From the IMG/VR virus record IMGVR_UViG_3300045988_044010: DNA of 64,000 nt, one strand, 5' to 3'. This DNA comes from a virus. Under the pieces are notes generated by a model. It was not told where the DNA came from. It saw only the letters and a list, made by a program, of their open reading frames with translations, and made no database searches. Each line of letters begins with the position of its first letter. Positions within the stretch are counted from its first letter, which is position 1. Position numbers and translations under genes: made by a program. Below, piece after piece: positions 21,541-64,000 of this stretch.

Positions 21541-21545
21541 TAGAA

Positions 21546-21551: not shown

Positions 21552-21556
21552 TAATT

Positions 21557-22000: not shown

Positions 22001-22004
22001 TAAT

Positions 22005-22026: not shown

Positions 22027-22042
22027 AAACACTATACTAATT

Positions 22043-22609: not shown

Positions 22610-22624
22610 TACTAGCCTTTTTTC
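22600..22624 (+). terminator. rho-independent terminator
   Basis: GGCTAGT (22600-22606) pairs with ACTAGCC (22611-22617) around a TAAT loop, followed by TTTTTT. Confidence 0.7.
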
Positions 22625-22742
22625 ATTTATAGCCCCAAGAACAAACGCTATTAGTTCATATGGTCTATTGTATTACTTACTACGTAAAGTGGCTAGAAAC
22701 GCCTTAAAATACGTTATTATTATATTTAATAAATAATGCATT

Positions 22743-31838: not shown

Positions 31839-31839
31839 T

Positions 31840-33798: not shown

Positions 33799-33803
33799 TT
33801 AAT

Positions 33804-47300: not shown

Positions 47301-47312
47301 TAACCAGATAAT

Positions 47313-50300: not shown

Positions 50301-51461
50301 TTCTTTAGGTAGCTTCCAGATATGATGGCAAACATTGGTAATCCTATACCAAACGGCAAAGTACCATATTTATTGATGTTAAATCAAGTAGTAAAAGACA
50401 ACAGAGAATTATTTGATAGATTAGACCAAAGTCAAGTATTACGTTCTATTAATCAGAACTTTTGGTTTGCAGGATATACACAAGCAGATTATACTGTTAA
50501 AAGCCACACGCTTCTAAGTATCTATCATAATTATCGTTTCGTAGATGGTGAAGGTTTTTTATCTAAACAATAGTATATTGATAAATTTTATTCAGATGAT
50601 AGAAAAAAAGGAGCAGTGGCATTTAAACAGCTTTCTACTACGTTATATGATGCTTATATCACTAATAATAAAGGCGAGGTTTCTGTAGATTCTAAATACA
50701 GTAAGTATGTTACTGAAAAGCTTTTAAATGATGTTAGAAATAGAATTGATATATTATCTAAAAGAATTGACGGTACTTTGAGAGAAGTAGATAAAGCAGC
50801 AGTTCATGCAAGTTCTATTGCATCTTACTTAGTATTACATCGTAACTTTATGGTATCTGCTTTATAGGATAGATTTAAGAAGAGACAATATAATCTAGAT
50901 CTTGGTGCTATGGAAGAAGGTTATTATAGATCTGCTGGCAAGTTCTTATCAAATGTGTTAAAGAATAAACATTTTGCTCTTACTTAGTTATTAGCAGATT
51001 ATAATAATATGAAAGACTATGAACAATATGGAGTAAGAAGAGTACTTAATGAGTTAATGTTGGTAGCTGGTTCTACGTCAGTAGCTATTGCATTTGCTTC
51101 ATTAGTAGATGGAGATGATGATTATGATATGTGGTTAACACAATCAATTACGTACTTGGCTATGCGTTCAGCATTTGAATTTAGAACTATGTATAACCCA
51201 CTCGAATTAATTTCTTTAATCAAATCTCCTACAGCAGCTTTCAATTGGTTTGATAATTTATCAAGCTTCATTAATCTGATAAATCCATTTGCATATACTG
51301 GAGATAGAACACCTTTTACTATAATAGATAGAGGAGTGTATAAAGGAATGCCTGTTATATTAAAGAATATAATTAAAGTAACCCCATTTAAGAGTGCATT
51401 TGAAGCTTAGGATCCAAAAACAAAACGAAATTATCTATAGAATCAATTAATGAACTTCTGA
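47313..51461 (+). CDS. large virion protein, 1382 aa with TAG read-through
   Basis: ATG 47313 lies 10 nt after the TAA TAA. Track ORFs 48129, 48765, 49674, 50076, 50322, 50616 and 51009 are all in the same frame. Interruptions are TAG only, up to TGA 51459-51461. Confidence 0.65.
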
Positions 51462-51484: not shown

Positions 51485-51534
51485 GCAGTGAACACTGCAA
51501 AAAAGGAAAAGCCTACTAGACAACTAGTAGGCTT
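51485..51534. terminator. convergent-module terminator region (two hairpins)
   Basis: GCAGTG/CACTGC lies at 51485-51498. An 11-bp stem AAGCCTACTAG/CTAGTAGGCTT lies at 51509-51534. On the minus strand the second hairpin is followed by TTCCTTTTTT. Confidence 0.65.
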
Positions 51535-51539
51535 ATTAG

Positions 51540-52040
51540 TTATATGTCATCACCAAATTCCATATAACTATAATAGTCTTCTTCTGGTATTTCAGCTTCT
51601 ATAGACTCACCAAATCTATAGTGATTATAAAACAAACGCTCTTCTAATTCTGGAACTGGCACGTTGTTCCAAAACCTGTTTATTTCTAATGCTGTTTTCA
51701 AATTATAAGTTTTACCATTTATACGAAGCCTATCAATATCTTTTTTATACTTAGGATTACTAAAACAATAGACAGTATAATGTTTTTTCTTAATAGTTAT
51801 ATAGTGAGTATTATAGATAGTATCTAACTGTCTAAACTTAAGAAATCTGTTTAAAGATTCCTTAGTGTTTACACTACTATCATAAACAAAAAAGACCTTA
51901 TCTTCTAAATAAGGTCTATTCTTATCACTAGTAAACGCATTAACAAAACCACTTTCTACTGTTAAATCTTCCCAAGTAATGTTATCGTTGCATAACGGAG
52001 CTATATATATACTTACATCATTCAAGTTCTTCAGTTCCAT
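51540..52040 (-). CDS. hypothetical protein (166 aa)
   Basis: Intact ORF with a TAA stop. It is the last gene of the leftward module. Confidence 0.7.
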   Translation of the reverse strand: MELKNLNDVSIYIAPLCNDNITWEDLTVESGFVNAFTSDKNRPYLEDKVFFVYDSSVNTKESLNRFLKFRQLDTIYNTHYITIKKKHYTVYCFSNPKYKKDIDRLRINGKTYNLKTALEINRFWNNVPVPELEERLFYNHYRFGESIEAEIPEEDYYSYMEFGDDI

Positions 52041-53004
52041 CTTCTTCGTAATATTTACGAGTATGGTCCCAATTACCTGTCTGATAATGATATGATATTT
52101 CTGTTAATGCTTCTGCTATTAGGTCTTTGCGATCCAACAACTCTTTCTCATTTAACATATTAAAAACACGTACTTCATTATTACCATTACTCTGAATAGC
52201 AATAATATACGCTTCTAAATCATATTCTTCTATATCATAACCTTCTTCCTTGAAATACCAAGTAAGAGCTAGTATATAGAATGCTATCTGTCTATAATAA
52301 TCATATTCTTCTACAGAATGCTTGAAATTATAAACATCAGCAGTTGTTTTTAAGTCAATTAATGTAATCCTTCTATTACAATGGTCAATCTTGACTCTAT
52401 CTAATAGTGACTTACAGGATACATTTGCTTTTTCATATTCCCAATTTATATGAAACTCATTATTACATTCTAAACCGGGCTGATTTGTAAGTAACTCACT
52501 TGCTTTTTTATGATTATCTATGTTTTCCTTAATACGTCTAAGCATAGTTATATCAGCAAATGATATTACTGTTTTGTTAGCTTTTTCAAGTTTTAAGTAT
52601 GAAATATATTCTCCGAACGAATCAACTATCTGTTTAGCTTCTTCTAGTTTTTTCTCATTAGATTTACTATTACTATAAGCTTTATTATAGCTATTAAGCA
52701 ATAATTTATCATTATCTTCTAGAGGATTTACAGCTAATTCTTGAACATATTCTATACATAAAGTTTTTTGTTGACTTACTTTAGGTACTACAAAATCTAA
52801 GATTATATAGTTATCCCAAAATTCGTCTGGTTGAAGTAGGTACATATGTATCATAGTTCCTTTTTCAAGAAACTTTCCACTAATACCTTCTTCTTTACCA
52901 TCAAGCATATCCTTGAGGTAACGAGGTCCTTTCTTCAAGAACCATCCTATTGCTGAATTTGATATTCGCGTGTTATCTTCATAATACGGAATTTCTATTT
53001 TCAT
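52018..53004 (-). CDS. PD-(D/E)XK family exonuclease (328 aa)
   Basis: Intact ORF. The ITLIDLKTT motif, with upstream acidic residues, fits the D...(D/E)xK nuclease signature of RecE/RecB-like phage exonucleases. Confidence 0.65.
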   Translation of the reverse strand: MKIEIPYYEDNTRISNSAIGWFLKKGPRYLKDMLDGKEEGISGKFLEKGTMIHMYLLQPDEFWDNYIILDFVVPKVSQQKTLCIEYVQELAVNPLEDNDKLLLNSYNKAYSNSKSNEKKLEEAKQIVDSFGEYISYLKLEKANKTVISFADITMLRRIKENIDNHKKASELLTNQPGLECNNEFHINWEYEKANVSCKSLLDRVKIDHCNRRITLIDLKTTADVYNFKHSVEEYDYYRQIAFYILALTWYFKEEGYDIEEYDLEAYIIAIQSNGNNEVRVFNMLNEKELLDRKDLIAEALTEISYHYQTGNWDHTRKYYEEDGTEELE

Positions 53005-53903
53005 GCTGCTGTTTTTGTTTCTTCAAATATGTTACTATCTACAATAAAATCTTCTTCTATTGTATTAGTGTCAGTAACAAAGTTTCCTGAAGTATCCCAT
53101 TCAACTTCATCTTCCTTTACAGGAATTTCTGCGCGTAGTTCTTCTGAGTAATTCTGTATGAGATCGCTCAGTTGCTTAGAAAACTCTACAGTTTGTGTTA
53201 AATTGGATATTGTTTGTAATCGTAGAAGAATCTCATCTATGATTTCTTGTCTTTTGTCTTCAGTCATAATATCTATTGTTACTATTTCCAAGTTCTTTTT
53301 AAAATTATACCCATCGTCCAATATAGAACAATTATGTTGTCCTATATGCCCATATGATACACCATCATGCCAATGTCCAAACAAATGATGTTTATATCTT
53401 CCAGAACTATAATAAAATAATTCATTATTATAATTAGGATTATCATGAGTAAGCAGTATATCACATTTAGGTATCTTTTTGAATGGATTATCTTCTACTT
53501 CATCAGTAGGATATTCAAATGCCCATTTACCCGGTTGGTATTCGATAGGTTTTATCCAAGGAGTTCCATAGAAGGTTGTACCTTCATATGTATATGACTC
53601 ATCAATAAGCATTTCTACTTTATTACCAGTCATTCCTCTCATAACCTCTTTAGTTTCTGCCCAAGCTTCTTCGTTATAGAGCTTTTCTAGGTAGAAATCA
53701 TGATTACCCGGAACTACGATTATCTTTTTACAAGGTAATTCATTAGCCCATTTAGTAAATCTTCTAGTCCACCAAGTAGCAGATGCATCCATGGATCTTT
53801 GTTCATTTAATGGAATTATGTCTCCACAAATGCACAAAACATCACATTTAGGAATCCCATTATAGAGATTCCCATGTATATCACTAATTCCACATATTTT
53901 CAT
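53001..53903 (-). CDS. calcineurin-like metallophosphoesterase (300 aa)
   Basis: Motifs GISDIHGN, CGDIIP, VPGNHD and GHWH. Confidence 0.8.
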   Translation of the reverse strand: MKICGISDIHGNLYNGIPKCDVLCICGDIIPLNEQRSMDASATWWTRRFTKWANELPCKKIIVVPGNHDFYLEKLYNEEAWAETKEVMRGMTGNKVEMLIDESYTYEGTTFYGTPWIKPIEYQPGKWAFEYPTDEVEDNPFKKIPKCDILLTHDNPNYNNELFYYSSGRYKHHLFGHWHDGVSYGHIGQHNCSILDDGYNFKKNLEIVTIDIMTEDKRQEIIDEILLRLQTISNLTQTVEFSKQLSDLIQNYSEELRAEIPVKEDEVEWDTSGNFVTDTNTIEEDFIVDSNIFEETKTAA

Positions 53904-53954
53904 ACTGTAAGAATTTAGTAAGTTTATATATAAGTATTGAATAAAATAGTATCA

Positions 53955-54788
53955 TTAGAATAAATCATCATCTATATCATCAGAATTACTTGTTCCTGTC
54001 CTTATTACTCCATTTAAGCTAAGATTCATATCTTTAGCTAATTTATCTAATGGAATATCTTCGAAGAGAACAACTTCATCCAAGAATGCTGAAATATTAT
54101 CAAATGATTTAACTTCCATATGTTCGACGATGAAGTTCACAACTTCATCTATGTTCTTTACTCCTTTATCTTCTGCCATATAGCGTACGAATACAGAATT
54201 AGAATTTGCTTCATATTCTTTGAAATAACGAACACGTGAACAACGATCAAAGAAGTTATCGTCTATTTTATCTGTTTTATTACAGGTCATCAATACCAGT
54301 TTCTTTGACGTAGCTTCTACACCATCTAAGAATCCTAACAGATCCTTAGTTTCCCACCAATAACTATTCTTCTCAATTTCGTCAAACATAACTACTACAG
54401 GAGTAGTAAAATGTTTGAAGAAACTAGTAAGTTTATTAGCAGGATAGTCATTTGCGACTATAATAATAGGTAAATTACTTTCTAAGGCAATACGTTTAGA
54501 GAGCATTGTTTTGCCTGTACCTTTAGTACCAGCAAGCAATATACCTGTTGTCTTTCCAGAATTTTCGGAATTAAAATAATTAAGTACACGCTTGATAAAC
54601 TTATTATCTTCTTCTAGTTCATATAATTTATTTGGCATGTTTAAATCTCCATTCTCTTTGAGATAAGATCTTCCCTGCATTCTATCATACTCTAGATCGT
54701 ATACTTTATTATTTATGAGCTCATAAGAAATACCTTCTAACTTAGGTTTAACTGTAATCTCATTTCCAATCTTAATAAATTCTGCCAT
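53955..54788 (-). CDS. AAA+ ATPase (277 aa)
   Basis: Walker A is LLAGTKGTGKT. Walker B is VVMFDEIE. Confidence 0.8.
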   Translation of the reverse strand: MAEFIKIGNEITVKPKLEGISYELINNKVYDLEYDRMQGRSYLKENGDLNMPNKLYELEEDNKFIKRVLNYFNSENSGKTTGILLAGTKGTGKTMLSKRIALESNLPIIIVANDYPANKLTSFFKHFTTPVVVMFDEIEKNSYWWETKDLLGFLDGVEATSKKLVLMTCNKTDKIDDNFFDRCSRVRYFKEYEANSNSVFVRYMAEDKGVKNIDEVVNFIVEHMEVKSFDNISAFLDEVVLFEDIPLDKLAKDMNLSLNGVIRTGTSNSDDIDDDLF

Positions 54789-54801
54789 AACTGTAATTTT
54801 T

Positions 54802-55194
54802 TTATGTTTTTAACTTGTTGACCAATTCATCAACTTGTTTTTGCGTATGTACTATATAATAATCTATATCTAGATTATTTACATACAAATAATACTTAAA
54901 AAGTTTTTCACGCAAAGCCCATGCATCATTTGGATAGCCTTTGCATTCAATAATAAACTTATCACCTACAAAATCAGGTTTATAAGTTATTGCTCTATAT
55001 TTCTTATCACCAAAAGTAAAAGCTGGAAGCAGTTCGTATCGTTGAGTTTCATACTCAGCTTTGATATTCGACTCTTCCAGCTTCTTATATGTATATGTCT
55101 CAAGTTTGCTTTTAAACTTAATACCATTATACTCATTTGGTGTTGCATTGCGAATTTTGCTTTCGCTAGGTTTATTTCTTTTCCTCTACATCAT
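54802..55194 (-). CDS. DUF1064-like PD-(D/E)XK nuclease (possible Holliday junction resolvase), 130 aa with TAG at codon 3
   Basis: It is not in the ORF track. The minus strand reads ATG ATG TAG AGG..., giving MM[TAG]RKRNKPSESKIRNATPNEYNGIKFKSKLE...ITYKPDFVGDKFIIECKGYPNDAWALREKLFKYY, with TAA at 54802-54804. There is no ATG/GTG/TTG after the TAG. Confidence 0.6.
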
Positions 55195-55327
55195 TAGTAA
55201 TATTAGATTTTCTGGAAATAGTTTTCCTTTTATGTCCAAAGGCAATAAAAAAATTACTATTTACTAATTTGAATGGAAAAGCTAATGCTTTACGCAATCC
55301 TTTGGAAATATAATTAAGTTTGCTCAT
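55172..55327 (-). CDS. small upstream ORF (51 aa)
   Basis: The ATG overlaps the TGA of the upstream phosphoesterase as ATGA. It ends at TAA 55172-55174 and overlaps the start of the DUF1064-like ORF by 23 nt in another frame. Confidence 0.3.
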   Translation of the reverse strand: MSKLNYISKGLRKALAFPFKLVNSNFFIAFGHKRKTISRKSNITNDVEEKK

Positions 55328-55896
55328 TGTTTTATATAGTTTTTTATGAAATTAGCCAATTTATCAATAGATACAAAGTCATAATTTGCAAAACTACTAT
55401 CAATACCAACATCTATACGAATGTGGTCAGGTAATTCTGCTGAGTTTTGTAAATCTACCGATCCATGGCAATGACCGTGAAGCATTATACTACCTTTTTC
55501 AATATGTTCCCAAGAGAACATAGGAAAATGACACATAATTACTTCAATGTCTTTTGGTAATGACTGAAACACAGTTTTCTTAAATGTCATATTCTTTATC
55601 TGAGTAATATGATTGAAGAAACATCTGTGATTATCTGATACTTTATCATGATTTCCTAGTATAAGTACTTTATTTCCATTTAATCTCTGAAATAGTTTTC
55701 GTTTTTCATCTGTTGTTCCAAATGCAAAATCTCCTAGAATATATACAGTATCATGTTTATCAATTCTACTGTTCCACTTTTGTATCATTTTCTCTGTTAC
55801 CTCTTTCATATTATTACCAAATAGTTCTCTCCGTTTAGGATGAAAATCTAGTATTCTATTATGAAAGAAATGCCAATCTGCTGTGAACCATATCAT
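55324..55896 (-). CDS. metallophosphoesterase (190 aa)
   Basis: Motifs TADWHFFH, GDFAFG, LGNHD and HGHCHG. Confidence 0.8.
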   Translation of the reverse strand: MIWFTADWHFFHNRILDFHPKRRELFGNNMKEVTEKMIQKWNSRIDKHDTVYILGDFAFGTTDEKRKLFQRLNGNKVLILGNHDKVSDNHRCFFNHITQIKNMTFKKTVFQSLPKDIEVIMCHFPMFSWEHIEKGSIMLHGHCHGSVDLQNSAELPDHIRIDVGIDSSFANYDFVSIDKLANFIKNYIKQ

Positions 55897-56864
55897 TTGT
55901 TAATATTTTTAGTTAACCAATTTTTCACTTTATCAAATCCATTAGCTTTTATAGCATCAGATACATCTTTTGCTTTAAACTTTTTATGAATTAGCATACC
56001 TTCTAAGCCTGTTTTCTGGCTCATTTTACGGAGATATTTTACTCCGGCTTCATCTCTATCAAACAATATAATAATACGTTTAAAACGCTTCTTAAGTTGT
56101 TCTAGAACTCTATCAGGTATGAATGTAGATTCAGATGAAGGTGAGATAGCTGGTATACCCATCTCGTATAGGCACATAACATCTTTCATACTTTTGGTTA
56201 TAACAAGTATATCTCCTGTTTTAGGTAATTGTTTATAACCCTGAATGTCTAATTCAGTTAAGTTGTTACGCCATTTTGTATATTTATCTGCATATGGTTT
56301 ATATATCTTAAAATGATTATATACCTTATATGCGTACATAGGATTTTCTTCTTTGTAAACGCTTTTTACTATGCCGTTACATAGGTAGTACTTTATACTA
56401 CTTACTCCAAACTTCTTTAATGTTTCTACCTGTATATTAAACTGCTTCCAGTAATTGATGTCAGTATCGGTAAATTCCTGACGTACTACACCAATTACTG
56501 TTTCAGTTGACGGTATATATTGCTTAGAGCTATCGAGATGCGTACTACTAGTAATTTTAAGTTTGTTAACTATATCATTTAGAATATCTGAATAATTAGT
56601 TAAACCTGTTATTAAGGATACGAATTTGATAACATTACCACATTCTCCTGTACCATGATCTTTAAACAACAATTGTTTAGTCTTTCTACTATAGAAACAT
56701 CCAAACGATGGTGTTTTATCTTTTCTCAATGGAGAATTATAGATCATGCCAACTTTAAAATTGCCAATATACGCTGCATATATATCATACTCACTTACTC
56801 TAGATAATATATAATCTAAAGTAATAGTAACTTCTTCTTTTATTTTGTTAGTATCAAAAACCAT
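55893..56864 (-). CDS. DNA primase (Toprim type, 323 aa)
   Basis: The C-terminal half has a Toprim-like ILFDRDEAG motif. It lies in the replication module next to the helicase and polymerase. Confidence 0.7.
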   Translation of the reverse strand: MVFDTNKIKEEVTITLDYILSRVSEYDIYAAYIGNFKVGMIYNSPLRKDKTPSFGCFYSRKTKQLLFKDHGTGECGNVIKFVSLITGLTNYSDILNDIVNKLKITSSTHLDSSKQYIPSTETVIGVVRQEFTDTDINYWKQFNIQVETLKKFGVSSIKYYLCNGIVKSVYKEENPMYAYKVYNHFKIYKPYADKYTKWRNNLTELDIQGYKQLPKTGDILVITKSMKDVMCLYEMGIPAISPSSESTFIPDRVLEQLKKRFKRIIILFDRDEAGVKYLRKMSQKTGLEGMLIHKKFKAKDVSDAIKANGFDKVKNWLTKNINK

Positions 56865-56879
56865 ATGATATATTGTTAG

Positions 56880-56965
56880 TGGCAGTGTAGAGATTTGAAC
56901 TCTACAGTAAAGGAAAGCTGTATCTTACTTTCTTTACACCATGCTCCTGACACTCCGGAACTGCC
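56880..56965 (-). ncRNA. tRNA-like element (acceptor helix plus canonical T-arm, non-canonical core)
   Basis: The minus strand reads GGCAGTT...TAGAG-TTCAAAT-CTCTA-CACTGCC-A. A 6-bp acceptor helix stacks on a 5-bp T stem with a TTCAAAT loop. The 54-nt interior forms a 10-bp bulged helix instead of D and anticodon arms. Its 3' end is 15 nt upstream of the primase ATG. Confidence 0.35.
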
Positions 56966-56971
56966 ATTAAA

Positions 56972-57033
56972 ACGTAGGTTGTGTACTATTTCGTAATCAC
57001 TCATTTTTCATAGTGCGGTACACTAACCTACGT
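56972..57033 (-). ncRNA. long hairpin (15-16 bp stem) in the SSB-primase intergenic region
   Basis: ACGTAGGTTAGTGTAC (57033-57018, minus strand) pairs with GTACACAACCTACGT (56986-56972), with one bulged base. Confidence 0.5.
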
Positions 57034-57082
57034 GTTCGTCGTATTATGCCCGACGTGGCGGCTTTATATAAATCCTAACAGA

Positions 57083-57709
57083 TTAGAAAGGTAGATCGTC
57101 AGACGGAGCTTCCGATTTGACTTCTAGAGGATTAACTTCTACAGTCTCTTTATCGGATACTACTGGTTTAACGAACAAGTCTATACCTGTTATTTCTCGT
57201 ATCATGCTTTCATTTTTGCCTTCTTCATAAAATCCCATCGGGATAATCATAGGCTCAATTGCTGCAAATTTTACATAACTTGGAAGTGTAGTATATCCAT
57301 CTTTATTATAGACAACTTTCACTTTCAACAATGTGTCTTTGTTTGCTGCATTCAGCATAGCAACTACCCAGTTAGTGAATTCTTTATAAGAACTACCAGT
57401 GAAGTTTAATACTTCTTTAGGATAGAAACATCTCAAGATACGATTAATTCTTGTAACCTGATTTGTTGCTTTATTCTGGTTCTGTTCTTCAGTATCTTCT
57501 GCACGTTCCTTAGGTTCCCATTCTGTATGAACAAGTTCCTTGCCGTCTTTCTCGAATCTAAATTCAATGAAATTCTTTCCTGTTGGAGATACTGCAGTCT
57601 TCACTGACGTAAATTTAACATTATCATGAATACCTGCTTCGAGGTATTTAGTATTACTACTATTATTATTTAATGTTACTTGGTTTGCTAAATCTGTACT
57701 ATAAATCAT
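57083..57709 (-). CDS. ssb: single-stranded DNA-binding protein (208 aa)
   Basis: Its C-terminus ends in DDLPF, like the acidic DDDIPF tip of bacterial SSBs. It lies in the replication module. Confidence 0.65.
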   Translation of the reverse strand: MIYSTDLANQVTLNNNSSNTKYLEAGIHDNVKFTSVKTAVSPTGKNFIEFRFEKDGKELVHTEWEPKERAEDTEEQNQNKATNQVTRINRILRCFYPKEVLNFTGSSYKEFTNWVVAMLNAANKDTLLKVKVVYNKDGYTTLPSYVKFAAIEPMIIPMGFYEEGKNESMIREITGIDLFVKPVVSDKETVEVNPLEVKSEAPSDDLPF

Positions 57710-57730
57710 AACTATTTGTTTTGTATTTTT

Positions 57731-58471
57731 TTATTCAGGTAAATATATCTTATTCCAATAAGTAGTGATTTCATTGTTTTCATCACTTTCTGCTACTACG
57801 ATATTCTTTCCTCTTAAATGAGGAGCTCTAGCTTCTATGACAGAGTTATCTCCACCTTCAAAAGAAATATGAGTTTCATTTTTCTTTCTATATACATAGC
57901 CAACAGCATCTGCTTCGCCACATATAATATTTGCTAGTGCACCTACTAGATCAAGAGACATTTCAGACATTTCTTCACCATTCTTATTAATCAACTTATC
58001 TCTAGTATGACCAATAAGAATAAAGTTATCACATAATCCTCGGAACATGTCAATAACTTTTCTTACAGCTTGTCTTATATATAAATAACCAGATCCATTA
58101 GGCAAGGTTCTGAGGTCTGTACCTTCATACTTCTTGCCCATTGGAGTAGCTTTATATAACTGTATAGCAAAGCTCATGCACATCTCTTCCAGTCTTGATG
58201 CATTATCAATAGTAATATACTTATAGGGTTTCTTACCTTCTTTTTTAATTTCTTCTCTTATTGCATTTGCAATCTCGCCTAAATCATTTACTGATCTAGC
58301 TTGAATAGCTAATGCCTCTAAGAATTCTGAACCACCTTCCAAATCGACAATAAGATTATTATCTAATTTAGATGCTAAGGTAGTTTTACCAGACTTTGGT
58401 TTGCCAAACAATATCAAGAATCTAGGATTCTCAATTCTGGCTTTTAATTTCTCTTTTGGTAATACAATCAT
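57731..58471 (-). CDS. AAA_24/Sak4-like RecA-fold ATPase (246 aa)
   Basis: The N-terminal Walker A is ILFGKPKSGKTTLAS, followed by LIVDLEGG. Confidence 0.7.
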   Translation of the reverse strand: MIVLPKEKLKARIENPRFLILFGKPKSGKTTLASKLDNNLIVDLEGGSEFLEALAIQARSVNDLGEIANAIREEIKKEGKKPYKYITIDNASRLEEMCMSFAIQLYKATPMGKKYEGTDLRTLPNGSGYLYIRQAVRKVIDMFRGLCDNFILIGHTRDKLINKNGEEMSEMSLDLVGALANIICGEADAVGYVYRKKNETHISFEGGDNSVIEARAPHLRGKNIVVAESDENNEITTYWNKIYLPE

Positions 58472-58544
58472 AAAGCTAGTTTATTTTATGTATCCCTCTG
58501 ATAAATATCTGATAATTTCTGCTAGTTATGGGATTTATATGTTA

Positions 58545-59060
58545 TTAGAACCAACCGTTATTCTTTACTTTAATAGTAAGATTAATGATTGTCTTCTTTG
58601 TTTCGGGTTTCAAATAGTTCAATGAACCCGGAGCGATTGGAATGATATCGTATCCAATCTGTACGAAATTGTGGAAAATTTTAATCGGTGTACCGTAGAT
58701 ATCCTCGAAATCATAATCCAAATCAAATGGATAATTCTTCTTAGCATATGCATCAAGTGCGTCTAATGCTTTAAAGAACTCTGTTTCAAGGTTATAGTTG
58801 TCGATTTTGTAGCACTTTGAGGCAAGTGGACAATTAGCACAAGTCTTAGGCAACCAGCTTACATTGTGTTTCTTACTCAAACCTAATGTAATAGTATCAC
58901 CTGCACCTGCATATTCGATTCCAAAATTAGATTTCGGATAATCAAATGAACTGTCAATAGTCAGCCACGGATATGCTGTAATAACGCGTTCCATCAACGC
59001 ATCTTTATAAATCTTTGCACTATTTTCTTTCTTCGGTAATGTAAATGTATATGTTTTCAT
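58545..59060 (-). CDS. hypothetical protein (171 aa)
   Basis: Intact ORF with a TAA stop. Confidence 0.7.
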   Translation of the reverse strand: MKTYTFTLPKKENSAKIYKDALMERVITAYPWLTIDSSFDYPKSNFGIEYAGAGDTITLGLSKKHNVSWLPKTCANCPLASKCYKIDNYNLETEFFKALDALDAYAKKNYPFDLDYDFEDIYGTPIKIFHNFVQIGYDIIPIAPGSLNYLKPETKKTIINLTIKVKNNGWF

Positions 59061-59086
59061 AAATTCAGCCTTTTTAATTGTTATTA

Positions 59087-60055
59087 CTAAAACGAAATCT
59101 TCTTTGCTGGTTCTTCATTTCGTATAGTTTCAATTAAATTATTGTATTTCAGATCGTTGTCGAATTCTAATATCGAGCATTGTCCAGCATCTCTATTCTT
59201 TATAAGATGCAAGTAGACTTTGTTATTAACTGGTAAACGATTCGGTCCATACTGTTGGATATTTAGTAACTCTGGTCTGTGAATACAAATAACATAATCG
59301 GATGCATGAAATATTGTATCAGCAGAAGAAATATCACTACGCATTGGATAATGCATAGATGGATTGTTAATTCTATCAGGAGTTTCAATGTTACGATTCA
59401 TCTGTGATAACTGTATTACAGTGGTATTAGGTAACTTTTTTACCTTAATAAACAGTTTCTGTAAATCGGAAATCACTTGCAGTGCTGACTCGCGAGATTG
59501 ACCTTCAACAAGTAAAGTATGGTCAAGTATGACTATAAATTTCTTGCCTTTAGCTTTATTCTCATAGAAGTAGTCTATAGTAGAAGCTATATCTTCAACT
59601 GTACCCGGTGTATCTACATAATATATCGGATATGATTTTATCTGTTGAGAAGTCTCTTCGACTTTGGCTAACGATTCATTATCTAAATCATTGTTAGCAC
59701 TATATAGCTCAGCAGTAGTTAGCCTTAACTTACTGCTTAATTTTCTACCAACCTGCCTAGAACTTAACATCTCAAATGAGAAGTTAAGTACTATAACATC
59801 CTGATCAGAATTTAGATCTATTAAATCATTTTCTAACGTATTAACAAATGATGACTTTCCACTACCTGATATACCCACTATTGTATATACAGTATTCGGT
59901 TCAATACCGCCCATACAGACAGCATTAAACTTATTCCATCTTGTTTTAAGAGACTTTACCTCATGGTTCTTTCTCTTCTTAATATACTCCGTAGCTTCTT
60001 TTGTTGCTGCTGATATATGCTGGAATTGTAGTATTTTAGTAGAGATCTGTTCCAT
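59087..60055 (-). CDS. DnaB-like replicative helicase (322 aa)
   Basis: Walker A is GISGSGKSS. Walker B-like is FIVILDHTLL. It stops at TAG, followed at once by TAA TAA (59081-59086). Confidence 0.8.
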   Translation of the reverse strand: MEQISTKILQFQHISAATKEATEYIKKRKNHEVKSLKTRWNKFNAVCMGGIEPNTVYTIVGISGSGKSSFVNTLENDLIDLNSDQDVIVLNFSFEMLSSRQVGRKLSSKLRLTTAELYSANNDLDNESLAKVEETSQQIKSYPIYYVDTPGTVEDIASTIDYFYENKAKGKKFIVILDHTLLVEGQSRESALQVISDLQKLFIKVKKLPNTTVIQLSQMNRNIETPDRINNPSMHYPMRSDISSADTIFHASDYVICIHRPELLNIQQYGPNRLPVNNKVYLHLIKNRDAGQCSILEFDNDLKYNNLIETIRNEEPAKKISF

Positions 60056-60602
60056 AACTATTTGTCATAATTGGTTCTTCTACTTTCATCTGTTCCTCGT
60101 AAGTCTCCCACTCATGTTGAGTGAGCCATTTCCACATAGTTTTCATATAACCTAATTTGCCGGTAAGCATTTTATTATCTATCTCATACTTAAGACAGTT
60201 ACAGATATGCTGATGCATAGCTTTGCTTTTTCCAACTATTCTATTATATTCCTTCCTACATTTGTTCACATTTGCTCTAAGGAAACCTTTGGTTCCATCA
60301 GGGCGTATAACATAAACTGGAAATAGGTCATAAAATTCATCAAACATAGATTTATCTTCTTTAAGAAGTTCTTCTAGTTCTTTTGTTTTCTTTATGACAG
60401 TAGTATCATCTACTATTTTGGTAGTGATTAGTTTACGAGACTCTAACTCTTGTATCTCTTCTTCATTAACTAGGCTGAGAAGTTTCTGAATGTCTTGATT
60501 GATGGTTTGATTATCACTCAATACAAGTGTTAGGAATACTAATTGATTCATAGATAAATCTGAAATTCTATCTAAGATAGAAGTGTCTATTTCTAAAATC
60601 AT
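60036..60602 (-). CDS. hypothetical protein (possible helicase loader/replication organiser by position, 188 aa)
   Basis: Intact ORF that overlaps the helicase start by 20 nt. Confidence 0.6.
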   Translation of the reverse strand: MILEIDTSILDRISDLSMNQLVFLTLVLSDNQTINQDIQKLLSLVNEEEIQELESRKLITTKIVDDTTVIKKTKELEELLKEDKSMFDEFYDLFPVYVIRPDGTKGFLRANVNKCRKEYNRIVGKSKAMHQHICNCLKYEIDNKMLTGKLGYMKTMWKWLTQHEWETYEEQMKVEEPIMTNSYGTDLY

Positions 60603-60657
60603 ATTCTCATATTATTATATGAGCTATGGTCTCTGAAATATATCTGATAAGCCTCTG

Positions 60658-62607
60658 TTAATCCCATAGGCTCATTTGTAACGGTTTTAATTCTCTGATT
60701 ATCTTATAGGCTTCCATAATGTAATACCTATAATTAATCTTTCTCTCTTCAATTGGTTTATCATCTAAGTAATTTAATAAAGTAACACCAGATGCAGTAA
60801 GCATATTCTGATACTGTTTTTCTGTAGGACATGGAATACTTATATCGAAACGATTAGTATCCTTTTCCTTCCATTTCCACAAGTAAGCACCATTAGTACT
60901 TGCATAGAAACGGTTTGTTCTCTGTTGTTCTTTATTATTATACTCAACATGCCATTGTTTACCAGTCTTTTCAGACATTAGAAAATCTCTAATATCTTTG
61001 CAACCTTTTATAGTTTCTTCTACTGGTACTCCGTTCTTAAAAAAGTTTATTACTGCTTTCGGTATGATCTTCGGAGTTAGACCTTTCCCTAATTTCACAG
61101 TAGTAATAAACATACCCTTCTCTTTTACCTTATCATCTTCAGTAATAGCAAAGTAGTCATTTATAGCATATTGATACATAGCTTTAAAACGTTCTTCCTC
61201 AAGCGTTAGCCTAGTAAGTTGTTCCCATTCTCTGCAAACGTTGTTAACTTTTGAATATACGTCTTTCTTAAGTAAGACAAATAATCCATCAGTATTTGCT
61301 TGGACGATTCGACATCCTAATTGGGTAAGTTTCTCTGCTAGCATTAGTAATAGTAACTGTCCATTTATTCTGATTTGCATTACAGCAAATGGACTATAAC
61401 AGAAATTGTGTTCATTCTGTAAGTTACCAGATAATCCATTGAGAGCAAGCTTTAAGGTTTCATTTTTAACCTTATTGCCATTGTGTTTAGCTTCAATTCG
61501 CTCATCTTTAATTTGTTTATATACTTCTAGGAATTCAGGACCTAAATGTTTAGGATAGAATTCATATTCTATTAGCATACTTGGATATAGAGATGCAACA
61601 TCTATATCAATGAGCATTTCATCTTCTTTCGGAATAATTATTTCAGGTTTATTCACTGAGTGAATTCCTCCGACTCCTACAGAATACTGTAATCCTTCAA
61701 ATACGAATTTATTTTCGTATCCTTTTCTACCTGGAGATACTATTTGACTTTTCATGTCATTTAGTACTCTAGTTAGTATAGGACTATCATATTTAATAAA
61801 AGGTAGTATAACACTATTTAATGGTATTACTGACATAGGAGATCTTAAATCTTTAATATCCCACCATGTTTGACCTGTTTTCTCAAGATACTTCTGAGTC
61901 AAGATCTTCATACCAATGTTTACACCATCTTTACTAAGTACACGTACTCCATATTCATCTTCAATAGCTATTCTTAAGTCGATGTCTTTTTTACATCTAT
62001 TGAGTAATTCCTCAGTAGAATTAACATCATTAATATTATAATCAATCATTGAATCAATTTGATTCTCAGGCAAATCTGCCTGCCAATCAGCAACAAATTC
62101 TTGTACATTCTTGTACTGCATTGTTACTTGAATTTCTTTCAAACCTACTCTTAGCTTATTACTATATAACATAGTAAGAATATCAAAAGAGTCAAAACAA
62201 ATCATATACTTCCACTTTCTCCAAGCAGAATTATCATCCTCACTTGAAGTAGTAATTACTTTACTTAGGTTAAACACAGACCTACAAATGTCTCTATAAC
62301 CTTTATATTTCATTATATTGTAACAATCTATTATATAGTTTATAATAGCATTATCATAATGAAGATTATTATAACCACAAAATAATATGTTAGTATCTAA
62401 CTTAATATCTGTAGTATATAAATCTCCGAAAGTATATTTTGTATTAACTGTATGAAAGAATTCAACTAATTCATCTAATTGATTTCTTCTGCAAGATATT
62501 TCAAATTTATGCAATTCACCTGTTTCTGTATTTTTTACAGTACAATGGAAGACATTGGGGAATACCTCAATATCATATACATAAACAATCTTATCTCGTA
62601 TAATCAT
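60658..62607 (-). CDS. family B DNA polymerase (649 aa)
   Basis: Exo I is YDIEVFPN, Exo II is NNLHYD, Exo III is YNINDV. Motif A is DVASLYPS, motif B is KLALNGLSG, and motif C is ANTDGLFV. Confidence 0.9.
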   Translation of the reverse strand: MIIRDKIVYVYDIEVFPNVFHCTVKNTETGELHKFEISCRRNQLDELVEFFHTVNTKYTFGDLYTTDIKLDTNILFCGYNNLHYDNAIINYIIDCYNIMKYKGYRDICRSVFNLSKVITTSSEDDNSAWRKWKYMICFDSFDILTMLYSNKLRVGLKEIQVTMQYKNVQEFVADWQADLPENQIDSMIDYNINDVNSTEELLNRCKKDIDLRIAIEDEYGVRVLSKDGVNIGMKILTQKYLEKTGQTWWDIKDLRSPMSVIPLNSVILPFIKYDSPILTRVLNDMKSQIVSPGRKGYENKFVFEGLQYSVGVGGIHSVNKPEIIIPKEDEMLIDIDVASLYPSMLIEYEFYPKHLGPEFLEVYKQIKDERIEAKHNGNKVKNETLKLALNGLSGNLQNEHNFCYSPFAVMQIRINGQLLLLMLAEKLTQLGCRIVQANTDGLFVLLKKDVYSKVNNVCREWEQLTRLTLEEERFKAMYQYAINDYFAITEDDKVKEKGMFITTVKLGKGLTPKIIPKAVINFFKNGVPVEETIKGCKDIRDFLMSEKTGKQWHVEYNNKEQQRTNRFYASTNGAYLWKWKEKDTNRFDISIPCPTEKQYQNMLTASGVTLLNYLDDKPIEERKINYRYYIMEAYKIIRELKPLQMSLWD

Positions 62608-62627
62608 AATATAATAATGTTAGTTTG

Positions 62628-62750
62628 AGTCCATGAGAAGATTCGAACTTCTAACTTAGGCATTTATTATCAGGCTCTACAGTCTGTTTATTATGATGCC
62701 AGAGGTCGTTGGAACCCCACTTTTTGTTTTGCCTATTAAACTACATGAAC
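62628..62750 (-). tRNA. tRNA-like gene with an insertion of about 50 nt in the anticodon-arm region (isotype undetermined)
   Basis: The minus strand reads GTTCATG-TA-GTTT-AATAGGCA-AAAC-A...AGAAG-TTCGAAT-CTTCT-CATGGAC-T. It has a 7-bp acceptor stem (one G.U pair), U8, a D arm with GG at positions 18-19, and a canonical T arm. There are 67 nt where 17 are expected. Confidence 0.4.
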
Positions 62751-62815
62751 AACCGGTGTTATTACCGACATTGCAATTAAAGAATCATATAATTATTGTA
62801 TTTTGCTAGCAGATT

Positions 62816-63319
62816 TTAGGCGGCTAGCTTTACCTTTTTCATTTGGTATATCTTAGCTGTACTCTTTCGAGCAAAACCTCGATTTTTCTTTTGTCGATGA
62901 CAATTTGTATGATCAACGGGTTCAGTATTATACGTACGTTTGTACGTTTCTTTGAACGCTACAAGGGAAGCTTTGTGCTTAGCCTTGTCTTCTTTGCTCT
63001 GCTTAGCAGATGCAATTTTGGCTTGTTTCATATGAATAATCATCATATTGAATTTAGCCTGAGCAGTTGTTAACTTATTATCCTTATTGAATTGAGGATA
63101 ATTAGGAGTTTGCAACTTAAAATGTTCTTTTCTAGCTTCTGCTAGTGCTTTTAAGTGAGCTTTTCTTTTAGCTCTCTTCTCCTGTAATTTAGGATCATCC
63201 CACATCGGACATGTGTTCTCTCCCTTTACGTTAGGTTTTCTTCCTGAGATAGCTCTTGCAGCTTTTTTATAAGCATTCTTTGCTTTTACTATAGCTTCTA
63301 TTTGTTCTTTTGTCTTCAT
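62816..63319 (-). CDS. Lys-rich basic protein (167 aa)
   Basis: Intact ORF with a TAA stop. The C-terminus reads KVKLAA. Confidence 0.7.
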   Translation of the reverse strand: MKTKEQIEAIVKAKNAYKKAARAISGRKPNVKGENTCPMWDDPKLQEKRAKRKAHLKALAEARKEHFKLQTPNYPQFNKDNKLTTAQAKFNMMIIHMKQAKIASAKQSKEDKAKHKASLVAFKETYKRTYNTEPVDHTNCHRQKKNRGFARKSTAKIYQMKKVKLAA

Positions 63320-63344
63320 ATCTTGATAATGTTAAAAGTTAAAC

Positions 63345-64000
63345 CTATGCTGCTAACAGCGTTGTCTTAGGATAGTAGATAATAGCATTATCTTTACTAT
63401 CTTTTAGTCGTACTCCAGTAAACGAAGTATCATTTTTGTACTTCTTAATTACTGTAGCTGCTTTCTTTTTTGCATCTTCTCGGCTATTAGCTTTGAAGTA
63501 GTCAGTTTGGAAATCATAATCCTTCATAGGATTATCGTCTGAACGGCGCTGAATCGTACAAGTGAATTGGCGCTCTTCTTCTTTTTCTTTCACGGACAGA
63601 TCTGCAGCCGTGTAACTTGGCTGTATATGCCTCTTAATAAAATCTAGAACCTTATCCTTGTGAGTTACTTCGGATATGTGTTTTCTAGATTCTAACAGTT
63701 CTTTTTTATGCTTTTTCTTAGCATTTATACGAGCTTTAATGTCTTCATCTGTTAACATAAGCGGTTTTGGTTGAACAAACAAGTTGTTTTTTACAGCACG
63801 AGTGAATTTCTTCTTCTCTGCTCTAGTATACTTAACTGTAGGATCATATCCTACTTTTTCAAGTATCTGTTTAATTCGTTCTTTCTTGGCTATCTTAGCA
63901 GCTTTGTTATCTTCCATAGCCTTCTTTGCTACATCAGTCAAATGATCAGCTAGATGTACTTTCTTGCTGTTACTGATGAAACCTATTACTTTCCCATCTT
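63345..64000 (-). CDS. Lys-rich basic protein (5' end probably outside the window)
   Basis: The frame stays open upstream of the track TTG start (63941) to the window edge. It stops at TAG 63345-63347, followed by GTT TAA. The C-terminus reads TTLLAA. Confidence 0.6.
   Translation of the reverse strand, partial: DGKVIGFISNSKKVHLADHLTDVAKKAMEDNKAAKIAKKERIKQILEKVGYDPTVKYTRAEKKKFTRAVKNNLFVQPKPLMLTDEDIKARINAKKKHKKELLESRKHISEVTHKDKVLDFIKRHIQPSYTAADLSVKEKEEERQFTCTIQRRSDDNPMKDYDFQTDYFKANSREDAKKKAATVIKKYKNDTSFTGVRLKDSKDNAIIYYPKTTLLAA

What the first reader, a model, noticed from the sequence alone, without database searches (positions are those of the whole stretch)
51540..64000. Clean code asymmetry: the replication module avoids TAG while the late module is saturated with it
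The leftward ORFs from 51540 to 63941 are intact under the standard code and have no internal TAG. The only exception is the unlisted nuclease at 54802-55194.

Nearly every long rightward gene carries TAG. By my manual count there are about 49 in the 33804-47300 ORF, and about 17 and 13 in the two fibre genes.

This is the pattern expected if early genes are read with the host code and late genes only after a phage-driven switch. Recoding biased towards late genes has been described for gut phages, including crAss-like ones, so the phenomenon is not new. The strand partition here is very sharp, which makes the locus a good test case.
Basis: partly seen in the sequence, partly recalled or inferred. 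Interest (0 to 1): 0.7.

Follow-up and report, generated by a model that had tools for sequence, protein, structure and literature searches.

The report
Late-gene TAG recoding in crAss-like phage
This gut crAss-like phage reads TAG as glutamine in its virion and lysis genes but keeps its DNA-replication genes free of TAG; this is a real but already published pattern, and the one exception, a TAG at the very start of a DNA-cutting enzyme gene, is conserved and may act as a timing switch.

Summary
The 30 rightward genes (198-51461) hold 193 in-frame TAG in 16,873 codons. The 15 leftward replication genes (51540-63917) hold one internal TAG in 3,858 codons. Out-of-frame TAG is equally common in both blocks.

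TAG means glutamine: it aligns with TAG or Gln in orthologues. The window is a Suoliviridae (delta-group) crAss-like phage close to cr109_1.

The suppressor tRNA(CUA) is not in the window. In same-species genomes it sits on the late strand just upstream of the terminase gene, and same-strand genes upstream of it are also TAG-poor. The partition therefore follows expression unit, not strand.

The TAG-free replication set is conserved across about 60 related loci. TAG is also rare there as a stop, and when used it is followed within 0-6 codons by TAA or TGA. The module suits either code.

Late-biased recoding is already published for these phages (Yutin 2021, Borges 2021/22, Peters 2022), so the main finding is not new.

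One addition I did not find in the papers I searched: the exception is a DUF1064 nuclease, annotated as a Holliday-junction resolvase, with TAG at codon 3. A leader TAG at codons 2-9 occurs in 13 of 19 recoded lineages and 0 of 8 standard-code ones. It may gate translation on the suppressor.

The parts
198..51461 (+). Late module (virion, tail fibre, lysis, virion RNA polymerase): 30 genes that need TAG read as sense
   Evidence: 193 in-frame TAG in 16,873 codons; 26 of 30 genes carry TAG. TAG is 24.9% of Gln-type codons. Stops are TAA or TGA only.
3528..8981 (+). Tail-fibre-like gene (1817 aa), 17 TAG
   Evidence: Same-species orthologues hit Pfam Collagen weakly.
10183..15024 (+). Tail-fibre-like gene (1613 aa), 13 TAG
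   Evidence: Orthologues hit Gp53-like_C or Phage_tail_C.
19313..20017 (+). Lysis-regulator (spanin-like) gene, strongly TAG-biased
   Evidence: 8 TAG of 17 Gln-type codons, P_high = 0.039. It corresponds to the cr109_1 'lysis regulatory protein-like' gene. This matches the spanin bias reported by Borges et al.
33804..47300 (+). Giant virion RNA polymerase homologue (4498 aa), 49 TAG
   Evidence: The fragment 42957-43889 matches PDB 6VR4 (phi14:2 gp66 RNA polymerase) at E = 3.9e-19. A DFDID motif lies at residue 3241.
47313..51461 (+). 1382-aa late gene, 33 TAG, the strongest TAG enrichment; a cassette that differs between strains
   Evidence: TAG is 41% of Gln-type codons, P_high = 0.001. Identity is 97% in some same-species strains and about 25% in others.
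51509..51534 (.). Terminator-like hairpin, matching on both strands, between the two convergent modules
   Evidence: 11-bp stem, reported on both strands.
51540..63917 (-). Replication/recombination module: 15 genes, TAG-free apart from one codon
   Evidence: PDDEXK exonuclease, two metallophosphoesterases, AAA ATPase, DUF1064 nuclease, DnaG primase, AAA_24, DnaB and DNA polymerase (cr109_1 annotation). One internal TAG in 3,858 codons. Orthologues in about 60 loci are likewise TAG-free.
54802..55194 (-). DUF1064 / T7 endonuclease I-like PD-(D/E)XK nuclease (putative Holliday-junction resolvase); start reads ATG ATG TAG
   Evidence: Pfam DUF1064 E = 6e-10. PHROG 190 'Holliday junction resolvase' E = 2e-14. 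PDF...IECK motif visible in the sequence.
55186..55188 (-). The single internal TAG of the module (codon 3 of the nuclease): candidate amber gate
   Evidence: A leader TAG at codons 2-9 is present in 57 of 63 related loci. No ATG, GTG or TTG lies between the TAG and the conserved domain.
59084..59089 (-). End of DnaB: TAG followed directly by TAA (then a second TAA)
   Evidence: It arises from a +1 T relative to other lineages.
63339..63347 (-). End of the 190-aa gene: TAG GTT TAA
   Evidence: Relatives read GCA GCA TAA GTT TAA at the same place, so TAG sits at the stop position.

Best explanation
The window is about two thirds of a roughly 100-kb Suoliviridae (delta-group) crAss-like phage genome. 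The phage uses two coding regimes within one infection.

The replication and recombination genes contain no sense TAG, so the unmodified host translation system (TAG = stop) can read them.

The virion, tail, lysis and virion-RNA-polymerase genes use TAG for about a quarter of their glutamine codons. They can be completed only once a phage-encoded amber suppressor tRNA(CUA) is present. That tRNA is Gln-like and is presumably charged by host GlnRS. Its gene lies outside the window, on the late strand just upstream of the terminase gene.

The replication module also nearly avoids TAG as a terminator, and it follows the few TAG stops with TAA or TGA. It is therefore read the same way before and after the switch.

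The one sense TAG in the module sits 2-9 codons after the ATG of a DUF1064 nuclease annotated as a Holliday-junction resolvase. It most likely makes synthesis of that nuclease depend on, or be attenuated by, suppressor availability.

Shown here: the codon asymmetry, TAG = Gln, the presence and position of the tRNA in same-species genomes, and conservation across relatives.

Inferred: the timing (by analogy with crAss001), charging of the tRNA with Gln, and the gating of the nuclease.
For: Asymmetry.
- It is frame-specific.

TAG = Gln.
- Of 120 window TAG codons aligned to cr109_1 orthologues, 33 face TAG, 32 Gln, 16 Glu and 8 Lys. Background Gln frequency is 3.3%.

Suppressor tRNA.
- tRNA(CUA) is found in cr109_1 and in most of 60 related loci. 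These include same-species L075, L076, L078, L079 and L082, where it lies 2-5 kb upstream of the portal gene on the late strand.
- One allele type (L079, L082, cr109_1) begins UGGGGUAU with a U1-A72 pair, as bacterial tRNA-Gln does by my recollection. RefSeq annotates the cr109_1 copy as tRNA-Gln.

Boundary.
- Same-strand genes upstream of the tRNA carry 2.1 TAG per 1000 codons, against 10.9 downstream, over 47 loci.

Conservation.
- Replication orthologues across about 60 loci carry 0-1 TAG per 1000 codons. The late 1382-aa orthologue carries 21 per 1000.
- The residual TAGs lie in C-terminal tails, in frameshifted assemblies or in an insertion that splits the DNA polymerase gene. The exceptions are the nuclease TAGs (leader; also codon 116 in four loci) and one strain variant at codon 8 of a metallophosphoesterase.

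Stop usage.
- Of 266 distinct replication-gene termini, 12 (4.5%, five events) use TAG. The next TAA or TGA follows 0-6 codons later, against a control median of 11 (Mann-Whitney p = 3e-6; by event).

Literature.
- Published metaproteomics shows TAG read as Gln in crAss-like structural proteins (PMC9523058).
- In the crAss001 transcriptome, replication genes come on at 10-30 min and late genes at 30-60 min, and earlier transcripts persist (PMC8375218).

Nuclease gate.
- A leader TAG is present in 12 of 13 dereplicated recoded lineages plus cr125_1, and in 0 of 8 standard-code lineages.
- The gene body is TAG-free like its neighbours, while the leader carries about 76 TAG per 1000 codons.
- No alternative canonical start lies after the TAG.
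- L041/L042 have CAA where L048 has TAG.
- Ordinary late-gene TAG sites turn over quickly: 0 of 145 TAG columns are conserved in all 9 lineages compared.
Against: - No expression data exist for this phage. 'Early versus late' rests on gene function and on a phage from another family (crAss001, Steigviridae).
- The suppressor tRNA is not in the window. One same-species strain (L074) has no canonical tRNA(CUA) at that slot, only an odd tRNA-like gene.
- The tRNA lies downstream of TAG-poor small genes on the same strand. It could be co-transcribed with them and so appear earlier than 'late'.
- The nuclease gate is not general. Recoded Oafivirinae (cr131_1, cr273_1, cr124_1, Dulem virus 42) and L041/L042 lack the leader TAG. 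The lineages are related, so the Fisher tests overstate independence.
- The resolvase function rests on profile matches and a motif only. The structure model was uninformative.
- The DnaB TAG-TAA-TAA ending comes from a 1-nt insertion rather than from a 'designed' tandem stop.
Confidence: 0.85

Rival explanations
1. The asymmetry is a neutral by-product of strand-specific mutation. For example, C-to-T bias on one physical strand would turn CAG into TAG only in genes coded on that strand. Selection linked to expression timing would not be involved.
For: In the window, the TAG-rich and TAG-free sets coincide perfectly with the two strands.
Against: - In 47 related loci, genes on the same strand as the late genes but upstream of the tRNA(CUA) are TAG-poor (2.1 against 10.9 per 1000 codons).
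- Off-frame TAG trinucleotides are equally common in both modules.
- GC and GC3 are similar in the two modules.
- The single minus-strand TAG is positionally conserved.
Confidence: 0.03
2. The replication module is TAG-free because it was recently acquired by recombination from standard-code phages. Replication genes, especially the DNA polymerase, are known to be swapped in crAss-like phages. On this view the module has simply not yet accumulated TAG.
For: - Yutin 2021 (PMC7886860) reports recurrent switching of the DNA polymerase type.
- Cassette swaps and insertions are visible among strains here.
Against: - The TAG-free state holds for every replication gene across recoded lineages that have diverged to 52-92% protein identity, measured on the nuclease.
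- Over the same divergence, late-gene TAG sites are gained and lost freely: 75 of 145 TAG columns are singletons.
- TAG does arise in the module (one strain has TAG at codon 8 of a metallophosphoesterase) but does not spread.
Confidence: 0.05
3. The TAG at the start of the nuclease gene is not a gate. Either translation starts downstream of it at a non-canonical codon, or it is an ordinary neutral Gln codon in a gene that happens to be transcribed late.
For: - Several recoded lineages do without it (Oafivirinae, L041/L042).
- Ile or Val codons lie just before the conserved RNATP motif.
- In the window a 129-nt gap precedes the gene and could hold its own promoter.
Against: - No ATG, GTG or TTG lies between the TAG and the domain in any lineage. 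The Val codons there are GTA or GTT.
- The Lys/Arg-rich leader runs in frame across the TAG in 12 different sequence contexts.
- TAG and CAA exchange at the aligned position.
- An ordinary late gene of 130 codons should carry TAG scattered along its body. Here the body is TAG-free and the TAG is always within codons 2-9.
- The leader TAG is far more conserved than any late-gene TAG site.
Confidence: 0.3
4. Recoding exists mainly to sabotage host translation (read-through of host TAG stops) or to block expression of late genes by competitors, not to time late genes. The asymmetry would then be only the unavoidable consequence that pre-switch genes cannot contain TAG.
For: - Proposed by Yutin 2021 (PMC7886860, Discussion).
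- The asymmetry itself is predicted equally well by this view.
Against: - Nothing in the sequence distinguishes purpose.
- The TAG bias of the spanin-like gene and the leader TAG of the nuclease fit regulation better.
- This rival concerns why recoding evolved, not what the asymmetry is.
Confidence: 0.15

Closest known systems
TAG-recoded (code 15) crAss-like phages of about 100 kb, delta group / Suoliviridae (Yutin et al. 2021, PMC7886860; Borges et al., 10.1101/2021.08.26.457843; Peters et al. 2022, PMC9523058)
   Same: TAG is read as Gln. A phage suppressor tRNA(CUA) is present. Recoded codons are concentrated in structural and lysis genes and the replication genes are in standard code. A spanin-like lysis gene is TAG-biased.
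   Different: Nothing essential. Three details are not in the papers I searched: TAG stops in the replication module are rare and backed up; the TAG boundary on the late strand coincides with the tRNA gene; and a conserved TAG sits in the leader of the DUF1064 nuclease.
CrAssphage cr109_1, NC_055892.1 (Buchavirus splanchnicus, Loutivirinae, Suoliviridae)
   Same: Collinear with the window at 76-91% nucleotide identity. It shows the same TAG asymmetry and the same TAG early in its 'Holliday junction resolvase' gene (codon 4).
   Different: It is a different species. It carries more TAG in some late genes (70 against 49 in the giant gene) and its primase ends in TAG.
Recoded homing-endonuclease gene inside an early gene of TGA-recoded Agate phages (Borges et al., 10.1101/2021.08.26.457843)
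   Same: A nuclease gene embedded among standard-code early genes carries recoded stop codons. The authors propose that these hold back its production until the code switch.
   Different: That case involves TGA read as Trp, a mobile intron endonuclease and preferential recoding of the gene family. Here a single TAG is confined to the first 2-9 codons of a core recombination nuclease.
   Same: A junction-resolving nuclease needed for packaging is kept low early and made mainly late through a post-transcriptional mechanism.
   Different: As I recall it, T4 hides the ribosome-binding site in an mRNA hairpin on early transcripts. No stop-codon suppression is involved.

Membership tests
Stop-codon-recoded phage, genetic code 15 with late-gene bias | Coding density rises sharply when TAG is read as sense | tested here: met
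   ORFs of at least 150 aa sum to 39.5 kb under the standard code and 67.6 kb with TAG as sense. TGA or TAA recoding gives smaller gains.
Stop-codon-recoded phage, genetic code 15 with late-gene bias | In-frame TAG aligns with glutamine in homologues | tested here: met
   Of 120 aligned TAG codons, 33 face TAG and 32 face Gln, then Glu and Lys. In the reverse direction 62 face Gln.
Stop-codon-recoded phage, genetic code 15 with late-gene bias | Phage-encoded suppressor tRNA with anticodon CUA | tested here: inconclusive
   None in the window. It is present in same-species genomes about 11 kb beyond the left end of the window (L075 and others) and in cr109_1. It is absent in canonical form from one same-species strain.
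Stop-codon-recoded phage, genetic code 15 with late-gene bias | [quoted passage not shown] | tested here: met
Stop-codon-recoded phage, genetic code 15 with late-gene bias | TAG demonstrably translated, and only late in infection | not testable with these tools
   Proteomic proof exists for other crAss-like phages (PMC9523058). There are no data for this phage.
Crassvirales, family Suoliviridae | Nucleotide or protein similarity and synteny with classified members | tested here: met
   Best matches are all Suoliviridae 'cr' genomes. Same-species contigs of about 100 kb exist.
Crassvirales, family Suoliviridae | Giant virion RNA polymerase homologue and crAss-type capsid protein | tested here: met
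   PDB 6VR4 match at E = 3.9e-19 with a DFDID motif. Pfam Crass_capsid is found on the gene just left of the window in same-species loci.
DUF1064 / T7 endonuclease I-like PD-(D/E)XK nucleases (putative Holliday-junction resolvases) | Profile match to the family | tested here: met
   Pfam DUF1064 E = 6e-10, above the cut-off. PHROG 190 E = 2e-14. Pfam Phage_endo_I scores only E = 0.008, below its cut-off, and PDB 3CAE scores E = 0.18.
DUF1064 / T7 endonuclease I-like PD-(D/E)XK nucleases (putative Holliday-junction resolvases) | PD...(D/E)xK catalytic motif | tested here: met
   KPDFVGDKFIIECKG is present. The PDF part is visible in the relatives shown and LPDFVGKGFVIECKG is present in cr109_1. 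Read from the sequence by eye.
DUF1064 / T7 endonuclease I-like PD-(D/E)XK nucleases (putative Holliday-junction resolvases) | Nuclease fold and junction-resolving activity | tested here: inconclusive
   The single-sequence AlphaFold2 model has pLDDT 65.7, and Foldseek against the PDB gives a best E of 0.16. Activity cannot be tested here.

The most novel reading that the evidence does not exclude
In the Loutivirinae-centred clade of TAG-recoded Suoliviridae, a single amber codon in the first 2-9 codons of the DUF1064 nuclease (putative Holliday-junction resolvase) is maintained by selection as a translational gate. The nuclease would be made only, or only at a reduced level, once the phage tRNA(CUA) is present. 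This would couple junction resolution to the late packaging phase from inside an otherwise code-neutral replication operon. It would be a specific, testable example of stop-codon recoding used as a one-codon regulatory switch on a non-lysis, non-structural gene.
Probability: 0.45. Interest if true: 0.55.

Novelty: already known. Interest (0 to 1): 0.3.

Why it matters
The main pattern matters only as a clean, well-quantified instance of a published phenomenon. It also confirms that gene callers must use two codes on such genomes.

What could matter more are three refinements, each of which turns the general idea 'recoding times late genes' into something testable.

- The replication module is neutral to either code, not merely standard. 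It has no sense TAG and few TAG stops, and those stops are backed up.
- The TAG boundary coincides with the tRNA(CUA) gene rather than with the strand.
- A conserved single amber codon sits at the head of a recombination nuclease. This could be tested with a leader-reporter fusion with and without the phage tRNA, or with a TAG-to-CAA phage mutant.

Tried and rejected
- **tRNA search in the window.** ARAGORN at default settings and Rfam at gathering thresholds found no tRNA. Relaxed runs found only tRNA-like elements of doubtful decoding.
- **Promoters.** The sigma-70 scan was no better than shuffles (26 sites against 27 expected). A search for the Bacteroides -7 motif TAnnTTTG found no candidate promoter ahead of any gene: only two intergenic matches, one at the window's edge (position 24) and one on the + strand inside a minus-strand gap. 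Shared k-mers among gaps were only AT-rich low-complexity sequence. I therefore have no evidence for or against a late promoter ahead of the nuclease.
- **Nuclease structure.** The single-sequence AlphaFold2 model (pLDDT 65.7) gave no significant Foldseek match in the PDB. The result is uninformative, not negative.
- **Giant ORF.** Pfam on TAG-free fragments gave nothing. Identity came from a PDB sequence match instead.
- **'TAG-free late genes are special'.** Rejected. After normalising to Gln-type codons none is significantly depleted (lowest P = 0.057 for 1663-2643).
- **'DnaB TAG TAA TAA is a designed tandem stop'.** Softened. It arises from a +1 T frameshift relative to other lineages. 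The pooled test over five events still shows that backups are unusually close.
- **Apparent sense TAGs in relatives.** Those in DNA polymerase, unk166 and the AAA ATPase lie in an insertion of about 700 nt or in frameshifted assemblies, outside the homologous region.
- **Strand-mutation bias and recent acquisition.** Considered and rejected; see the rival explanations.
- **Universality of the nuclease leader TAG among recoded Suoliviridae.** Tested and not met. Oafivirinae lack it.

Full report
**What the window is.** The window has 32.7% G+C. Its best matches in the phage collection are all Suoliviridae crAss-like genomes. The nearest is cr109_1 (NC_055892.1, Buchavirus splanchnicus), at 76-91% nucleotide identity in collinear blocks. 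The 326-aa protein encoded at 1663-2643 occurs with identical sequence on many public contigs of about 100 kb. Six of these are 93-98% identical to the window over the shared 12 kb (five at 96.7-98%), so they are treated as the same species but none is the source itself. The window runs from just after the capsid gene, through the tail, lysis and virion RNA polymerase genes on the + strand (198-51461), to the replication genes on the - strand (51540-63917). A terminator-like hairpin that matches on both strands (51509-51534) separates the two convergent blocks.

**Checking the observation.** Standard-code ORFs of at least 150 aa sum to 39.5 kb. Reading TAG as sense raises this to 67.6 kb, and all of the gain is on the + strand. 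Recoding TGA or TAA gives smaller gains. A further 33 lie in 47313-51461.

| Block | Genes | Codons | In-frame TAG | TAG among Gln-type codons |
|---|---|---|---|---|
| Late (+ strand, 198-51461) | 30 | 16,873 | 193 | 193 of 775 (24.9%) |
| Replication (- strand, 51540-63917) | 15 | 3,858 | 1 internal | 1 of 108 |

The difference is significant per codon (Fisher p = 8e-14) and per Gln-type codon (p = 1.5e-11). Out-of-frame TAG trinucleotides are about equally frequent in the two blocks, and G+C and GC3 are similar. The depletion is therefore specific to the reading frame and not a matter of composition. The single internal TAG of the replication block is codon 3 of 54802-55194, at 55186-55188.

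**What TAG means.** I aligned eleven late proteins with their cr109_1 orthologues. Of 120 window TAG codons, 33 face TAG, 32 face Gln (CAA 27, CAG 5), 16 face Glu and 8 face Lys. In the reverse direction, 62 cr109_1 TAG codons face Gln. Background Gln frequency is 3.3%. This is the substitution pattern expected of a glutamine codon. It agrees with published mass spectrometry on other crAss-like phages (PMC9523058).

**Where the suppressor is.** ARAGORN and Rfam at gathering thresholds find no tRNA in the window. cr109_1 carries a tRNA with anticodon CUA at 11608-11687 on the late strand, just upstream of a homing endonuclease gene and the terminase gene. I scanned 60 of the 80 loci retrieved around the portal gene. 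Most have a tRNA(CUA) 2-5 kb upstream of the portal on the same strand, including same-species L075, L076, L078, L079 and L082. By position this is about 11 kb beyond the left end of the window. One allele type (L079, L082, cr109_1) begins UGGGGUAU with a U1-A72 pair, as bacterial tRNA-Gln does by my recollection. At least three different alleles occur within the species.

**The partition is not by strand.** Across 47 loci, + strand genes upstream of the tRNA carry 2.1 TAG per 1000 codons, against 10.9 for those downstream. In same-species L075 the twelve small upstream genes hold 2 TAG, both in one ORF. The boundary therefore follows the tRNA gene and the expression unit. This also disposes of strand-specific mutation bias as an explanation.

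**Is the TAG-free set conserved?** I collected 64 loci around the nuclease gene and matched ORFs called with TAG as sense to the window's 15 replication proteins.

- Fourteen of the fifteen orthologue groups have 0-1.1 TAG per 1000 codons.
- The neighbouring late 1382-aa gene has 21.3 per 1000.
- The few TAGs found fall into five classes:
  - in the last 1-8 codons of the gene, or in a non-homologous C-terminal tail (Mphos1 in L035, codons 248 and 255 of 264);
  - in frameshifted assemblies;
  - in an insertion of about 700 nt that splits the DNA polymerase gene in three loci;
  - in one case a strain-level variant at codon 8 of a metallophosphoesterase;
  - in the nuclease itself.

**TAG as a stop in the replication module.** Among 266 distinct gene termini in recoded relatives, 205 use TAA, 49 use TGA and 12 (4.5%, five independent events) use TAG. 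After a TAG terminator, the next in-frame TAA or TGA follows 0-6 codons later. After other terminators the median distance is 11 codons (Mann-Whitney p = 3e-6; by event). In the window's 190-aa gene the TAG sits exactly where relatives have TAA. The DnaB case arose from a 1-nt insertion, so not every case is a 'designed' backup. The module is best described as readable identically under either code. That fits crAss001, where earlier transcripts persist through the cycle (PMC8375218).

**The exception.** The gene 54802-55194 encodes a 130-aa protein.

- It matches Pfam DUF1064 (E = 6e-10) and PHROG 190 'Holliday junction resolvase' (E = 2e-14).
- It matches T7 endonuclease I only weakly.
- It carries a PD...ExK motif.
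- A single-sequence structure model was too poor to add anything.

The gene starts ATG ATG TAG. In 57 of 63 related loci a TAG lies 2-9 codons after the ATG and 5-13 codons before the conserved RNATPNEY domain. It occurs in at least twelve different leader contexts, such as MMx, MTx, MKRx, MRRKRx, MKRKKKx, MKKx, MKKNxKKx, MRQKKSIAx, MEQKKKx and Mx.

Four points argue that this TAG is translated:

- No ATG, GTG or TTG lies between the TAG and the domain. The Val codons there are GTA or GTT.
- The basic leader continues in frame across the TAG.
- L041/L042 have CAA where L048 has TAG.
- The gene body is TAG-free, with only four loci carrying a second TAG at codon 116.

After dereplication at 93% identity, 12 of 13 recoded lineages carry the leader TAG, and so does cr125_1, which belongs to another subfamily. 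No standard-code lineage has it (0 of 8). However, recoded Oafivirinae (cr131_1, cr273_1, cr124_1 and Dulem virus 42) lack it. By contrast, ordinary late-gene TAG sites turn over fast. Of 145 TAG-containing columns in the 1382-aa orthologue across nine lineages, none is TAG in all nine and 75 are singletons.

The simplest reading is that the amber codon makes nuclease synthesis depend on, or be attenuated by, the suppressor. This is an inference, and I put it at about 0.45. The word 'resolvase' does not occur in the Borges preprint, and a full-text search found no paper linking a resolvase to phage stop-codon recoding. The general idea of a recoded nuclease held back inside an early region is published for an Agate-phage intron endonuclease (10.1101/2021.08.26.457843).

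**Other features of the late module.**

- The giant ORF is the virion RNA polymerase homologue (PDB 6VR4, E = 3.9e-19; DFDID motif at residue 3241).
- TAG use is fairly even at about 25% of Gln-type codons. It is enriched in 47313-51461 (41%, P = 0.001) and in the spanin-like gene 19313-20017 (47%, P = 0.04). The latter echoes the published spanin bias.
- The four late genes without TAG are not significantly depleted once their Gln content is considered.

**Comparison with what is known.** Yutin et al. 2021 state that in crAss-like phages reassignment is mostly confined to the part of the genome holding late genes. Borges et al. state that in TAG-recoded crAss-like phages of about 105 kb the replication machinery is in standard code, and they propose the early-standard, late-recoded model. 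Peters et al. confirmed TAG read as Gln by proteomics. The finding is therefore a correct, cleanly quantified instance of a known phenomenon in a known family.

**Verdict.** For novelty I file the main finding as already known. Interest is modest at 0.3. What keeps it above routine is the conserved leader amber of the nuclease and the either-code design of the replication module, both of which give concrete experiments.

Noticed in passing
window 56865-57082 (- strand), between the 208-aa gene and the DnaG primase gene: A 218-nt structured RNA candidate. Its minimum free energy is -61.1 kcal/mol with z = -4.1 against shuffles. It is conserved in the species and, at 75-80% identity, in other lineages, where 10 of 38 predicted pairs show compensatory changes. 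It has a long 5' hairpin and a 3' tRNA-like domain with an acceptor stem, a T-arm (GTAGAG-TTCAAAT-CTCTAC) and an 'anticodon' stem of about 10 bp whose loop holds a conserved AAGAUA. It has no Rfam match. Relatives carry ordinary tRNA genes at this slot: tRNA-Leu in cr131_1 and two tRNAs in cr124_1.
   Followed up: partly
window 62628-62750 (- strand), just upstream of the DNA polymerase gene: A tRNA-like gene of 123 nt. It matches Rfam tRNA at 39.2 bits (E = 9e-6), with a 65-nt stretch in place of the anticodon arm. ARAGORN in intron mode calls it 'tRNA-Ser(aga) with a 39-nt intron', which is doubtful. It is present only in the window and in L021 among the 64 nuclease loci. cr55_1 has a tRNA-Val at the equivalent slot.
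   Followed up: partly
L074:6652-6754, same species and outside the window; also in L081, L084, L085, L107, L113, L115, L116, L132, L133, L141: A 103-nt tRNA-like gene (Rfam tRNA 35 bits) with an extended anticodon arm whose loop reads CCCUAAAG, so it contains CUA. In L074 it occupies the suppressor slot and no canonical tRNA(CUA) is detected, although the late genes of that strain are TAG-rich. In L084/L085 both elements are present. It could be an unconventional suppressor that standard tRNA finders miss.
   Followed up: partly
window 16131-18685 (+ strand): A diversity-generating retroelement. It comprises a tail-protein target gene (16131-17399) with a variable repeat at 17285-17377, a template repeat at 17443-17535 (77% identical, with mismatches at template adenines), and a reverse transcriptase gene at 17651-18685 (PHROG 1423, E = 1e-108).
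   Followed up: partly
L075, L076, L079/L082 (same species, outside the window): The suppressor tRNA(CUA) slot holds at least three quite different tRNA sequences within one species (TGCCCTCTAATTTG..., TGCCCTATGGTG..., TGGGGTATAACG...). This suggests cassette-like replacement of the suppressor.
   Followed up: no
window 47313-51461 (+ strand): The 1382-aa late gene is 97-98% identical in some same-species strains and only about 25% identical in others. It is a swapped cassette, possibly a host-range determinant, and it is also the most TAG-enriched long gene.
   Followed up: no
L013, L021, L042 (DNA polymerase orthologues); absent from window 60658-62607: The DNA polymerase gene is split after codon 412 by an insertion of about 700 nt, which looks intron-like. 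The window's copy is uninterrupted. In addition, an HNH endonuclease gene is inserted near window position 9770 in strains L004, L006 and L008 but not in the window.
   Followed up: no
window 59081-59095 (- strand): Relative to other lineages, the window's species has one extra T near the end of DnaB (TTT TAG TAA TAA against TTT AGT AAT AAC AAT TAA). This removes the last four residues.
   Followed up: yes
window 60658-62607 (- strand): The 649-aa DNA polymerase has no significant Pfam match (only a spurious hit below threshold) but matches PHROG 1252 'DNA polymerase' at E = 4e-148. Pfam does not seem to cover this polymerase lineage.
   Followed up: no
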